Source: Babesia bigemina (lineage: Eukaryota). Taken from it: a DNA stretch of 64,000 nt. Shown here piece by piece: positions 23,566-29,111 of the stretch (position 1 is its first letter; the number at the start of each line of letters is the position of its first letter). Made by a program: the position numbers and the translations under genes. Under the pieces are notes generated by a model, which saw only the letters and a list, made by a program, of their open reading frames with translations, was not told where the DNA came from and searched no databases. The stretch is taken from positions 248,001 to 312,000 of the forward strand of contig NC_027217.1 of the NCBI RefSeq assembly GCF_000981445.1. The letters run 5' to 3'.

Positions 23566-25344
23566 ATGGGACTGCTTCGGGTCCTCGGCGCCCTGGCCAT
23601 CGCAATCCACGCCGCTGCGGTGCTGGAGCGCGGCGGCAGCGCGGCCGGTACGGCTATGGCAGTCGCCCTGCGCAGCTGTGAGGGCTGCTGCGATGTGTTG
23701 GGCCCCGGGCGCGCGACTCGGGCGCCGCGCGGCGCCGGCGCGTTCATCGGCTCGTCAGCCGCCAAGTGGAAGGTAGGTGGCGGTCCGTGCGCAACAGCAG
23801 CTGCAGGCGGGTTCCGGCGCGGTCCTGGACGGCCGTAGGGCGTCCGCTCTAGGCAGGAGTTTCGCGAAGGCGAAAGAAGAGGTGCGCGCTGCGTGAACGA
23901 GTGGTTTTGTGCTGTGGTACATGTCGTGTGCGTGTCGGTACGTAGCAGTGGCCGCGAACGGCGGTGGTTCCGGCGTCCGGGCGGGTTGCATTTCGCGTGT
24001 TGGATTACCCCTCAATTGCGCAAAGGACCCCGCTTCCACGGATGATGACCTCGACGGAGTGGCCTCCGATGTCTTCGAGGACGAGGTGGGGTACGACGAC
24101 ATCTACGACGAGGATAGCGAGTACGGCAGCGAGGAGGAGGAGGAGGATGAAGAAGATGAAGATGAAGAAGGCTCGACGTCGGAGTACGACTCCGACGAGG
24201 AGGCGGGCAACAGCGCCTTCGACTACAACGCCCGCGGGGAGCTGATGCTGCCCAACCTTCCCAGGCTGTCGAGGACGCGCGTGTCCCGTAACCGCCACAA
24301 GCTGTTCCGGGGCAGCGTCGTGCACCTCTCCGACCTGGTCTACCCGTTGGTGGTTCACGACAAGGTGGGTGCCCCCGCTTGCGCCGTGACGTTTCGCAGG
24401 AATCGTCGGAGTCCGTGCCCGAGGTGCCGGGGCTGAGGCTGATGTCCATTGCGGACCTTGTGAAGGAGGTCGAGGAGGCCCGTAACCTGGGCCTGACGTC
24501 GTTCATGATCCACCCCCACATCGACAAGGCTCTGCGCAGCCAGTTCGCCGATGAGGGGCTGAACCCGGACGGGCTGCTGCCGCGCGCGATCGACGCCGTC
24601 AAGGAGGCCTTCCCTGACGTGCAGGTGTTCGCCGACGCGAGCGTGGCGCACTTCTCGCTGGACGGCCACGACGGCCTGGTGGAGCCGCAGACCGACTTCA
24701 TCGCCAACGACGTGTCGGTGAGCCAGGTGGCGAAGCAGGTGACCACGCTGGCGTCCGCCGGGTGCGACGTGGTGTCTCTGAACGACACGCTGGACGGCAC
24801 CGTCGGTGTGGCGCGCGACGCGCTTGACTTCGAGGGGTTCACCGACGTGTCGCTGATGAGTCGCGCCGGCAAGTTCAACTCCGTGCTCATGGCGCAGCAG
24901 CGCAAGCTGCTCGGCATGACCCCGTCGGAGAATGTGCGGCCCGAGAGCTACCTGCATGACGTGGCGGTGGACGAGGAGAGCATCATGAAGGGCATGCAAG
25001 GTGCGTTTCCAGCCGACTGCGTCACACCCGCTGCAGATGTGGACGACGGGGCCGACCTGGTCGCCGTGGAGCCCGCCACCGGATTCCTGGACGTCATACG
25101 GAACCTCAAGGACCGGCTGCGAAGCCCCGTTGTGGCGGTGCACACGACCGGGGAGTACCGGGCGCTGAAGGCCGCGGCGGCGGCGGGGGTGTTCGACGAG
25201 CGCGCGGCTGCGCTCGAGGCCATCCGCGGCCTGCGGCGCGCCGGCGCCGACGTGATCATCTCCAGCTTCTCGAAGGATGTTGCGCAGTGGCTGTTGGAGG
25301 ATATGCAGACGAACGGGATGGAGCACGTAGCCCTAGGTTTCTAA
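23566..25344 (+). CDS. hemB: Apicoplast-targeted delta-aminolevulinate dehydratase/porphobilinogen synthase homologue, probably inactive; exons 23566-23772, 23807-23881, 24026-24364, 24400-25000, 25037-25344
   Basis: Hydrophobic signal + basic transit peptide; LSDLVYPLVVH, NPDGLLPRAIDAVKEAFPD, FSLDGHDG, AGCDVV..DTLDG, DDGADLVAVEP, GEYRALKAAA, RRAGADVII. All introns GT-AG and frame-consistent. Confidence 0.9.
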
Positions 25345-25483
25345 CCTGATGTAATCGTAGCACTTGCTGCCGGCCGCTGCTTTGCGTGATTTTGATTGTG
25401 ATGGTGATTGTGATTGTATGTGTTTTAGTTGTTTGCCGCGTTGCATGCCCCGTGTCTGCGCACGATACTGACCCGCCTTGCAG

Positions 25484-28400
25484 CCCGCTGACCCCCTGCC
25501 GGAGAACCCGCAAGTGGTGCGCGGGCGGCTGCCCAACGGCCTGGAGTACACGCTGCTGCCGAACGCGAACCACTGCGAGCGACTCGAGGCGTACCTGGAG
25601 GTGATGAGCGGCTCCGCGGACGAGCTGGACCACCAGCGCGGCGTGGCTCACTTCTGCGAGCACGTGACCTACATGGGCAGCAGGTGCGTTGCGGCGGGCC
25701 CCCGACTCACCACCCGCAGGAAACGGGACGCGCTCGTCGGCCGCGACGTGCGCACGAACGCGTTCACCGACTTCCACCACACGGTGTTCTACGCGTCGTG
25801 CCCGTCGTCGATGGAGGGCTGCGGCGGCCGCGAGGGCTCGCTGGAGCGTGCGCTGGAGGCGCTCGCCGACGTCGTCGTGGCGCCCACGCAGTTCACCGCC
25901 TCGCGCGTCGAGAAGGAGCGGCAGGCGATCCTGTCGGAGGCGCGCATCATCAACACGCTGGAGTACCGCAAGAACTGCGCCACCGTGGAGGCGCTGCACT
26001 CGGAGACCAGGTGGGCTGGCGGCGCGGCCACGGCTAACCCCTTGCAGGCTGTGTCGCAGGTTCCCCATCGGCGACCTCGACGCGTTGGAGCGCTACAGCG
26101 TGCAGGACCTGGCCGACTACCATCGCATACACTACCGCCCGTCGAACCTGCGCCTGTTCCTCGTCGGCGACATAGCGCCCGAGTCGGCCATCCGGGCGGT
26201 CGAGCGCGTGTTCGCCGGGATGCAGGAGGACCGGGAGCTGGTCGACCGGTACATGCGTGAGCACGCGGACATATACCAAGGCACCGTGAAGGAGTCGCGG
26301 TGGGGGCTCCCGCCGGCCAAGCACATCTGGGACCAGCCTGGTACGTTTGCAGCGCCGGGCGCCGTGTAACAACGCTGCAGGCCCGATCGCGCACGTTTGG
26401 CAAAACGGCCAAATAAGGAATTTGAGTCTCGAGGTCGTGAGAAAAATGCCGATCCCGACGATTCTCACGTGCGGCGATATGCGTCAGAGCTTGCTGATGA
26501 AGCTGGCGTACCGCATCATGTCGCTGAACTTCGACATTCTGCAGCGGGGCGCGGGCTCGCTGGAGTCGGTGGAGGCGAACGACTACGACTGCACCAACGA
26601 GGGCTGCCGCGTGCGCTCGTTCGAGTTCCGGTGCGCGCCCTACCAGTGGCGCGACGCGCTGTCGGCCGCCGTGGCGCAGGCGAAGTGCCTCGCCACGCAG
26701 GGCGCGACGCACGAGATGTTCTCCCTCGTCAGGGACTCGATGCTGCTCGACTGCTCGCGGCTGGACAGCGCCAAGGCGGACAACCGCGACGTCATCGCCG
26801 GGCTGATGGACGCGGCGACGTGCGGGCGCACGGTGATGCTTCCGGACGCCGAGAAGGAGCTGGTCACCGACATGCTGCACAGCGTCCGCCTGGACGACGT
26901 GAACGACATGGCGTCGCGGCTGTTCCCGTGGTCGTCCGGGGAGAGTTTCTCGGGGATCCACCTGATTTGCTCCACGCCTCCTCCTGACCCGTCCATCGGC
27001 TACGACGGCGTGACGGAGGAGCTCGTCGCCGACGCCTTTGAAAGCGAGTGCCGCGAGCCGCTCTCCGCCGCGGCGCTGAACCCCAACGTCAACACGCCGT
27101 CGCAGCTGCTGAGCGACGAGGAGCGCCGTGAGGTGGTCGGGCGTCGCCCGTACGGCGAGGCGCCGTCGTTCGTCGCCAACCCCATGCTGCCGAAGGAGCG
27201 GTACGCTCGCCCGGAGGAGCCGCGGGACGAGGTGCTGAGGTCGCTGGCCGTCGGCGGCGACCTCCGTCTGGTGTCGGAGCGGTACATCGACGCTGTGCGC
27301 GACTCGTTCAAGCTGCGGTCCGACATCGAGTACATCACGGAGAACACGGAGACGCCGTCGGAGCTGTCGCGGATCGGCGAACGGCTAACTGAGGGGTCCA
27401 GCCACCTCGTAAACGAGCGAGAGCACGGCAAGTACACCCAGGCGCTGGCGAACCTGCGCAAGCCCCTGGCGTCGACGCTGGACCCCGGCGACGTGCTCTA
27501 CCGCGAACGGCCGGGCCCGGCCGGCATCCACCTGCTGACGCTCGGCAACAGCATCCGTGTGAACCTGCGCGTGGGCGAGGGCGACCAGATGGCCATGAAG
27601 GCCGTGATCCCCATTGAGTACGACTACTGCAACCAGGAGGCGCTGCTGCGGCGCAAGCGCGAGCTGCTCCTGGCGGCCAACGCGATGATGGAGGGCGGCG
27701 CCATGGGCAGCCTGAGCCGGCTGCAGGTCGAGATGTTCTGCAGCCAGCACCTGATCGACGTGATGATCGGGGCCAACGAGGACTACTTCTCGATCGAGAT
27801 GTCGTTCCCCTACGGCCGGCAGGGCCGGCGCGGCGGCAACCTCGAGAGCGCCCTGCAGATAATGCACGCGCTGCTGCAGCACCACCGCATCGAGCCGGAC
27901 GCGCTGGCGCGTGCCAAGGACAAGCTGCGCCGCGACCGCGACGTGTATGCGCAGGATCTCCAGGCGTACGGCACCGCCGACCTGGTGTCCGCCATGAGCG
28001 AAGGCAAGCTGACCTACCACAACCTGGACATGGCGGCCATCGGCGAGTCCAAACTGGAAAACATCCAGGCCACGTTGGACGGGATCTTCAAGCGCGGCGC
28101 CGTCGAACTCTCGATGTCCGGCGCGTTCGACCTGCAGGCGGCGAAGTCACTGCTGCTGCAGTATATCGGCACCGTGCAGCTGCCCGAGTCGACGGCGCCC
28201 GCACCGGACCGCTACCAACTCTGGCGGCACTACGACACCGCAAGCGACGATGCGGCTGACAAGGGCGCCCGGTTCACCACTGTCCAAGACGACGCCGTTG
28301 GCCCCGCTTCCACTGGCGGAAGCGGATCGGAGGCGTCCGACGCCCCGGCGAGCCCCGAGGAGCGGCACCGGCTCATTTTGGTGCCGGACAACCAGGAGCG

Positions 28401-29111
28401 CGCCATGGTGCTGGTGGGCGGCTACGCCCCGAACGCCAGCGGGATCATGCCGGACGGGACTCACATGGCCGACATCATGCACGCGGAGCTGTACGCGACC
28501 TTGGCGACCGACAGGGACGTGAACAACAACGTGGAGAAGCTGGTGCGCACGGCGAAGGAGCTGTGGCTGCACCCCGCGTTTCCCCGCGCCGCGTGCGCGC
28601 TGCTGCAGGAGATTCTCAACAACCGCTCGTTCACCGTGGTAAGCTTTGCGTGAGCCCCCTTCATCGCACTCAGCTGCGCGCGGAGAAGCACCTGACGTAC
28701 GAGTCGAACGTCGACTTCGTGCTGTACGACGTGCAATTCGCAGGCTATTTCGTGATCTCAGTGCACTCGTCGTTCGACAAGTCGGAGTCTATCCTGGAGG
28801 AGACGCGCAACCTGGTGGCCGAGCTGCGGGCTGGGATCAGGCCAGTCACGGAGCACCATCTGCAGCGCGCGCGGGACCAGGTGGTTGCGCGCCTGCGCAA
28901 GGACAGGACCGCCCACCGCCACTGGGTCGGCGAGCTGCTGGGGACGCAGAGCCGTCGGGTGCCGCTAAAGAGTTCATTATTCTGCACTGAGTTCGAGCGG
29001 GTGCTGCGCCGCATCACCTTGGACGACGTGCACCTGATGTTCGGGTCGAACGCCTTCGGCTTCGGCGAGGAGCACATGTGGAGCCGCGTCGTGCACACGG
29101 CCGTCGGCTAG
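25484..29111 (+). CDS. SPP: Stromal processing peptidase (M16 insulinase family); no own ATG/leader, predicted to be spliced to exons 1-2 at 23566-23881
   Basis: VRGRLPNGLEYTLLPN...LEAYLEVMSGSADELDHQRGVAHFCEHVTYMGS (HxxEH at 25649-25663), TNAFTDFHHTVF, VEKERQAILSE, RFPIGD; acceptor 25482-25483 with branch point TACTGAC; four short internal introns. Confidence 0.92.

What the first reader, a model, noticed from the sequence alone, without database searches (positions are those of the whole stretch)
23566..29111. One apicoplast leader, two proteins: HemB nested in a 1.6-kb intron of the stromal processing peptidase
Seen: the SPP frame has no ATG or signal peptide. It starts at a strong acceptor (TACTGAC branch point 25466-25472, TTGCAG ending 25483) in phase 0. 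Exons 1-2 (23566-23772, 23807-23881) encode signal + transit peptide and end at a phase-0 donor (GAG|GTGCGC, 23882). That donor can join 24026 (giving ...KAKEE|DPAST..., HemB) or 25484 (giving ...KAKEE|PADPLPENP..., SPP; 1602-nt intron versus ~35 nt typical here). Known: a shared ALAD/SPP leader by alternative splicing is described in Plasmodium. Inference: the arrangement is retained in this piroplasm, coupling the plastid leader-cleaving protease to a HemB homologue. A weaker phase-0 donor at 25327 could additionally give a HemB-SPP fusion.
Basis: partly seen in the sequence, partly recalled or inferred. Interest (0 to 1): 0.85.

Follow-up and report, generated by a model that had tools for sequence, protein, structure and literature searches.

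The report
Shared plastid leader, dead haem enzyme
In this Babesia locus one plastid-targeting leader likely serves two proteins by alternative splicing, an arrangement already described in apicomplexan parasites, but the nested haem enzyme has lost a key catalytic lysine while staying highly conserved, so it likely does a different, unknown job.

Summary
The anatomy is real. [quoted passage not shown] The locus matches the B. bigemina record. The shared PBGS/SPP leader is published for Plasmodium and Toxoplasma, and the gene cluster is stated for Babesia, so the headline is already known. No RNA test was possible.

Two additions. (1) Six piroplasm database records give this locus as one HemB-SPP fusion. 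Here that donor is weak and is the last in-frame GT before the HemB stop, so it is more likely a gene-model artefact than the main product. (2) The nested HemB is likely a pseudoenzyme. The second Schiff-base lysine is glutamate in 9 of 9 piroplasm sequences, and 11 of 15 chosen functional positions are changed in all nine. Yet the B. bovis orthologue models as an intact PBGS fold, and HemB is more conserved than SPP in 21 of 21 species pairs. I did not find this stated in the papers I could search.

The parts
23566..23772 (+). Leader exon 1: hydrophobic N-terminal signal-peptide-like stretch and start of the basic transit-peptide-like region
   Evidence: composition (residues 19-92: 12 K/R, 4 D/E); same N-terminus in record P0133. 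No SignalP-type predictor was available.
23807..23881 (+). Leader exon 2, ends at the phase-0 donor 23882 used by both predicted isoforms
   Evidence: a basic stretch followed by EE (E in T. equi) sits at this point in 7 other piroplasm proteins
23882..25483 (+). Predicted 1602-nt alternative intron of the SPP isoform; contains the three HemB-specific exons
   Evidence: open frame; junction not shown by RNA (no test)
24026..24364 (+). HemB-specific exon A: acidic stretch and PBGS N-terminal arm; weak AAG acceptor
   Evidence: same junction in P0133
24400..25000 (+). HemB-specific exon B (PF00490); carries the retained first active-site lysine (model residue 365) and the altered lid
   Evidence: Pfam E 8e-35
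25037..25344 (+). HemB-specific exon C with its own stop; codon 25069-25071 is Glu where PBGS has the second Schiff-base Lys (model residue 419)
   Evidence: Pfam E 3e-24
25327..25332 (+). Weak phase-0 donor (CAC|GTAGCC) used by the annotated HemB-SPP fusion model
   Evidence: Lacks -1G and +5G; last of 50 in-frame GT sites before the HemB stop; junction in P0133
25466..25483 (+). Branch-point-like TACTGAC and TTGCAG acceptor of the first SPP exon; contains the in-frame TGA that closes the SPP frame upstream
25484..29111 (+). SPP body in five exons (25484-25683, 25720-26010, 26048-26340, 26381-28638, 28674-29111); M16 peptidase with intact HXXEH (HFCEH, 25649-25663)

Best explanation
One pre-mRNA likely splices its two leader exons either to a nested HemB-like gene or, skipping it, to the stromal processing peptidase, so both proteins would enter the apicoplast; the HemB-like protein has lost a catalytic lysine and is likely a non-catalytic protein kept for another job. 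Shown: both open frames, the splice signals, the intact HXXEH motif of SPP, the residue losses in HemB and its high conservation. Inferred: the choice is between a near, weak AAG acceptor (24025) and a far CAG acceptor with a clear branch point (25483). SPP would then cut transit peptides in the stroma, as in Plasmodium. The HemB-like product is predicted to fold as PBGS and, by analogy with Toxoplasma PBGS, to oligomerise. My best guess for its job is a structural or regulatory role in the apicoplast stroma, using its surface or a rebuilt pocket rather than making porphobilinogen (about 0.6 for such a role, about 0.2 that SPP is the partner).
For: Frames and signals. Same layout in P. falciparum and T. 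gondii; cluster stated for Babesia. None of the 4 stand-alone Babesia SPP records I read (P0121, P0122, P0123, P0126) begins with a leader-like N-terminus, judged by eye. P0122 reads into SPP through ...FLQ, like ...ALQ here, which fits a conserved phase-0 CAG acceptor (inference). P0004 (500 aa, leader+HemB with its own C-terminus) lies on a 1625-nt contig, too short for the 249 nt of introns seen here, so it is probably a spliced transcript of a relative (its DNA was not seen). Dead enzyme: Lys to Glu in 9 of 9 piroplasm rows and 0 of 7 controls, with 11 of 15 chosen sites changed in all 9; gap-free 340-residue alignment to T. gondii PBGS; 3 of 3 piroplasm proteins score below the PRK09283 cut-off (258-276 against 297) while T. 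gondii scores 452; Babesia lacks most of the haem pathway. Still constrained: HemB identity exceeds SPP identity in 21 of 21 species pairs; GC3 0.89 against 0.92 for SPP; the B. bovis orthologue models at pLDDT 92.6 with TM 0.95 to 3obk; a long branch separates a 100/100 piroplasm clade with mostly short internal branches from the controls.
Against: No read or cDNA joining 23881 to 25484 was seen. No leader+SPP protein appeared among the 4 hits of the SPP search or their cluster members. Six annotated records instead fuse HemB to SPP. The first active-site Lys and the first Asp of the DVALD motif are kept in 9 of 9 rows, so some chemistry or ligand binding is not excluded. The 21 species pairs are not independent, and against T. 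equi the first 260 residues of SPP are more conserved (64%) than HemB (55%). The model was built on an alignment made mostly of active PBGS sequences, which pulls it toward that fold. No enzyme assay was done.
Confidence: 0.75

Rival explanations
1. The main product is a single leader-HemB-SPP fusion protein (donor 25327 to acceptor 25484), and the dead HemB is kept as an N-terminal domain of SPP.
For: Open 1663-aa frame. Fusion records for B. bigemina, B. divergens, B. gibsoni, B. ovis, B. sp. Xinjiang and T. equi, the five Babesia ones joined at the same position. It would explain why a dead enzyme stays constrained.
Against: The donor lacks both -1G and +5G, which all 8 other model donors have, and it is the last in-frame GT before the stop, where a gene finder would join two frames. 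In the other four Babesia fusions the residue before the join is His or Asn, whose codons cannot give -1G. The 5-residue tail after the donor is conserved in five stand-alone HemB records. The annotations may not be independent of each other.
Confidence: 0.15
2. HemB is a passenger: it persists only because it sits inside the SPP intron and shares the leader (in the spirit of the hypothesis in PMC3064897 that it could not be lost).
For: Babesia lacks most of the haem pathway. The active site is dismantled. T. parva and T. annulata lack the cluster.
Against: An intronic passenger would decay. Instead the frame is intact in at least 6 Babesia species and T. equi, the core is 79-88% identical to five Babesia orthologues against 66-70% for SPP, and 145 core columns are invariant across 8 piroplasm rows, 34 of them unlike every control.
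Confidence: 0.04
3. SPP has its own start: a promoter near the end of HemB and a short first exon in the 139-nt spacer (for example ATG 25401 with donor 25452, giving 17 hydrophobic residues), or the internal ATG 25604.
For: ATG 25401 opens a hydrophobic 17-codon stretch that is in phase with the acceptor. Intronic promoters exist in P. falciparum.
Against: That stretch comes from a GATTGT repeat, has GC3 0.41 against about 0.9 in coding exons, has a donor lacking -1G and +5G, and has no transit peptide. ATG 25604 removes the conserved first 40 residues.
Confidence: 0.04
4. The HemB-like protein is still an active porphobilinogen synthase, as databases and the B. bovis genome paper label it.
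For: Intact fold and first Lys; annotation names.
Against: Second Lys is Glu; lid, metal and carboxylate-binding positions are changed; two active-site lysines are implicated in covalent catalysis (PMC535902, passage).
Confidence: 0.02

Closest known systems
P. falciparum ALAD/SPP locus (PF3D7_1440300 / PF3D7_1440200) and T. gondii PBGS/SPP (TGGT1_253900 / 253890)
   Same: Two shared leader exons and first intron; the rest of the PBGS gene inside SPP's long second intron; SPP without its own targeting sequence.
   Different: Three HemB-specific exons here against four in P. falciparum. There PBGS is a working enzyme in a haem pathway; here it lacks the second lysine and most of the pathway is absent. 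Splicing is shown there and inferred here.
Porphobilinogen synthase / ALAD (PF00490; T. gondii 3obk; P. aeruginosa 1b4k)
   Same: 41% identity without gaps over 340 aa to T. gondii; same predicted fold for the B. bovis orthologue (TM 0.95); first active-site Lys kept; a short C-terminal extension after the barrel as in apicoplast PBGS (role of the extension from PMC7729013, passage).
   Different: Lys260 (P. aeruginosa numbering, counted from the alignment) is Glu; Lys229, Gln233, Glu245 and the conserved Tyr/Ser/Asp positions are changed in all 9 piroplasm rows; below the equivalog cut-off.
Stromal processing peptidase (M16 family, PF00675/PF05193)
   Same: HXXEH intact; M16 domains; homologues in Chromera, Besnoitia and Theileria.
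   Different: No leader of its own; peptidase activity not tested.

Membership tests
Apicomplexan PBGS/SPP shared-leader locus | PBGS-specific exons lie between the leader exons and the SPP body on the same strand | tested here: met
Apicomplexan PBGS/SPP shared-leader locus | SPP body lacks its own signal/transit peptide and begins at an acceptor in phase with the leader donor | tested here: met
   (judged by composition; no dedicated predictor)
Apicomplexan PBGS/SPP shared-leader locus | Transcripts joining the leader directly to SPP | tested here: inconclusive
   no listed RNA holder; 8 of 24 listed runs laid, none carried the organism's sequence usefully
Apicomplexan PBGS/SPP shared-leader locus | Both products localise to the apicoplast | not testable with these tools
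   Needs tagging or leader-GFP
Porphobilinogen synthase (active enzyme) | PF00490 TIM-barrel fold with N-terminal arm | tested here: met
   fold modelled on the B. bovis orthologue P0003
Porphobilinogen synthase (active enzyme) | Two active-site lysines | tested here: not met
   First kept, second is Glu in 9 of 9 piroplasm rows
Porphobilinogen synthase (active enzyme) | Lid, carboxylate-binding and Mg-site residues conserved in active enzymes | tested here: not met
   11 of 15 chosen sites changed in all 9 rows, 2 kept, 2 mixed. The roles of these positions are recalled, not taken from a call.
Porphobilinogen synthase (active enzyme) | Score above the NCBIfam equivalog cut-off (PRK09283, 297 bits) | tested here: not met
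   257.6, 269.8 and 275.5 bits for three piroplasm proteins; T. gondii 451.5
Stromal processing peptidase / M16 peptidase | HXXEH zinc motif and M16 domain layout | tested here: met
Stromal processing peptidase / M16 peptidase | Cleaves transit peptides | not testable with these tools
   Inferred from orthology

The most novel reading that the evidence does not exclude
Piroplasms turned the nested haem enzyme into a non-catalytic regulator or scaffold of the plastid leader peptidase. One splice choice sets the ratio of dead HemB to SPP, and a minor conserved splice also makes a covalent HemB-SPP fusion. This would explain why the gene outlived haem synthesis and is more conserved than the protease it sits in.
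Probability: 0.15. Interest if true: 0.75.

Novelty: new variant of a known kind. Interest (0 to 1): 0.42.

Why it matters
The shared leader itself is known. What matters is the variant. A parasite without haem synthesis keeps a catalytically stripped PBGS under strong constraint inside the gene for its plastid leader peptidase. That points to an unrecognised non-enzymatic job for PBGS in the apicoplast, which may also exist in Plasmodium and Toxoplasma, and it argues against simple passive retention. It also suggests that several public gene models (one fused protein, or a leaderless SPP) are likely wrong, which would hide SPP from apicoplast-targeting predictions, and that counting ALAD as a retained haem enzyme in Babesia is likely misleading.

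Tried and rejected
No whole genome was held, so the absence of other haem genes in this assembly rests on papers, not on my search. Run search: no RNA holder listed. Eight of the 24 listed runs were laid: 7 gave no reads, and 1 gave 3 partial reads on the repeat near 25400 that run on into unrelated sequence, so this is no test either way. Complex prediction of HemB-like with the SPP N-terminal half was not available; binding is untested. Four primary or review papers were not held. The earlier-findings index had nothing on this locus. B. microti, B. duncani, Cytauxzoon and Plasmodium HemB did not appear in the listed hits of the word-limited searches, which says nothing about their presence. 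The annotated acceptor for the second SPP intron in P0133 (5 residues shorter) was rejected in favour of 26047 because the B. ovata, B. divergens, B. bovis and B. gibsoni records keep those residues. dN/dS could not be computed because no orthologous DNA was obtained.
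Full report
Observation. Exons 23566-23772 and 23807-23881 encode 94 residues and end at a phase-0 donor. Joined to 24026 they give a stop-free 509-aa leader+HemB protein; joined to 25484 they give a stop-free 1253-aa leader+SPP protein; the weak donor at 25327 gives a stop-free 1663-aa fusion. 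Pfam assigns ALAD (PF00490) to two of the three nested exons and M16 peptidase domains to the downstream exons. The SPP frame is closed by a TGA inside the branch-point-like TACTGAC, four codons before the acceptor, and its first usable ATG (25604) lies 40 codons into the conserved domain. All 8 model donors have -1G and +5G, against 6.5% of 7949 GT sites in the window. Eight of 9 model acceptors are CAG; the HemB acceptor is AAG.

Identity. Database record P0133 (Babesia bigemina, 1659 aa) matches the translation of this locus, apart from 5 residues at one SPP intron, and is annotated as a single HemB-SPP fusion at the 25326/25484 junction. Fusion records also exist for B. divergens, B. gibsoni, B. 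ovis, B. sp. Xinjiang and T. equi. B. bovis is annotated as HemB plus a leaderless SPP with consecutive accession numbers, and the B. ovata SPP record lacks the HXXEH motif.

What is known. A 2011 review (PMC3064897; passages and section 15 read) says that P. falciparum and T. gondii SPP use the PBGS targeting exons by alternative splicing, that this microsynteny also occurs in Babesia although Babesia lacks the haem pathway, and that T. parva and T. annulata lack it. PMC13170353 (one passage) gives the P. falciparum layout as two shared exons, a shared first intron and four ALAD exons inside SPP's long second intron. PMC6381282 and PMC4482073 (passages) say the same.

Which isoforms are real. 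RNA could not be tested: no RNA holder was listed and the 8 runs laid, of 24 listed, did not carry the locus. Indirect evidence favours two products. The fusion donor lacks both consensus positions and is the last of 50 in-frame GT sites before the HemB stop. The HemB tail beyond it is conserved in five stand-alone records. One relative's leader+HemB protein (P0004) sits on a contig too short to hold introns of the sizes seen here (inference). Another relative's SPP frame is entered through ...FLQ, like ...ALQ here. Against this, no leader+SPP protein turned up in the 4 SPP hits or their clusters, and six annotations use the fusion. I give the shared-leader skip about 0.8 and the fusion as main product about 0.15; a minor fusion isoform is not excluded. 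A spacer ATG at 25401 gives a hydrophobic 17-mer, but it has non-coding GC3, a weak donor and no transit peptide.

The nested HemB is likely not an enzyme of haem synthesis. It aligns without gaps to T. gondii PBGS over 340 residues at 41% identity. The conserved VKP motif reads VEP here (codon 25069-25071) and in 9 of 9 piroplasm rows, against 0 of 7 controls. Of 15 positions I chose from conserved PBGS motifs, 11 are changed in all nine, 2 are kept (the first lysine and the first Asp of DVALD) and 2 are mixed. The roles of these positions are recalled, and P. aeruginosa numbers were counted from the alignment. That two lysines act in covalent catalysis is stated in PMC535902 (passage). Three of 3 piroplasm proteins fall below the PRK09283 cut-off that T. 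gondii passes.

It is nonetheless constrained. The core is 79-88% identical to five Babesia orthologues where SPP is 66-70%, and HemB is the more conserved of the two in 21 of 21 species pairs. These pairs are not independent, and against T. equi the first 260 residues of SPP are the more conserved. The B. bovis orthologue P0003, not the window protein, was modelled at pLDDT 92.6 and matches 3obk at TM 0.95; the alignment was mostly active PBGS. The tree shows a long branch to a 100/100 clade of the 9 piroplasm rows with mostly short branches inside (T. equi is a long tip), the pattern of a function shift followed by renewed constraint.

Mechanism. Shown: frames, signals, residue losses, conservation. 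Inferred: alternative 3' splice-site choice delivers both proteins to the apicoplast; SPP removes transit peptides; the HemB-like protein works non-catalytically, most likely as an oligomeric structural or regulatory protein.

Novelty. The shared leader is already known. Catalytic loss in the piroplasm PBGS was not stated in what I saw from ten full-text searches. The B. bovis genome paper (PMC2034396, passages) and PMC10249562 (passages) list it simply as ALAD. PMC6733595, PMC3263815 and PMC4532139 (passages) had nothing on it; PMC7729013 (passages) gave the role of the apicoplast C-terminal extension. The primary JBC papers and two haem reviews were not held, no supplements were read, and most subscription journals are not searched, so it may be in print. 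Earlier AI notes describe dead HemB copies in bacteria; these are unchecked parallels, not support.

Verdict. A real feature, a known arrangement, with a probably unreported twist. Interest 0.42.

Noticed in passing
window:25001-25036: The last HemB intron is 36 nt with no in-frame stop, so retention would add 12 residues just before the lost-lysine strand; the first SPP intron (25684-25719) is also 36 nt and stop-free.
   Followed up: no
window:24026-24210: A long Asp/Glu-rich stretch follows the leader in the HemB isoform only and is present in all the full-length piroplasm orthologues read; it may mark the end of the transit peptide or be part of the new function.
   Followed up: partly
window:29111-29126: SPP ends only 12 nt from the stop of a convergent minus-strand ORF (458+ aa, no Pfam hit), so their 3' UTRs must overlap each other's coding ends.
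   Followed up: partly
window:25388-25420: Short GATTGT-type repeat in the low-GC (52%) spacer between the HemB stop and the SPP acceptor; could bear on 3'-end formation or splice choice.
   Followed up: no
P0003 (B. bovis, BAN66195.1): This record ends in a different C-terminal heptapeptide from the reference B. bovis HemB (P0132); a sequencing slip or a further 3' isoform.
   Followed up: no
P0136 (T. equi, 1670 aa): T. equi keeps the HemB/SPP cluster with the same Lys-to-Glu change, unlike T. parva and T. annulata as described in PMC3064897; its model seems to retain an intron at the leader junction.
   Followed up: partly
window:26011-26063: Two CAG acceptors 15 nt apart in the second SPP intron; the public model uses the downstream one, homologues favour the upstream one.
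   Followed up: yes
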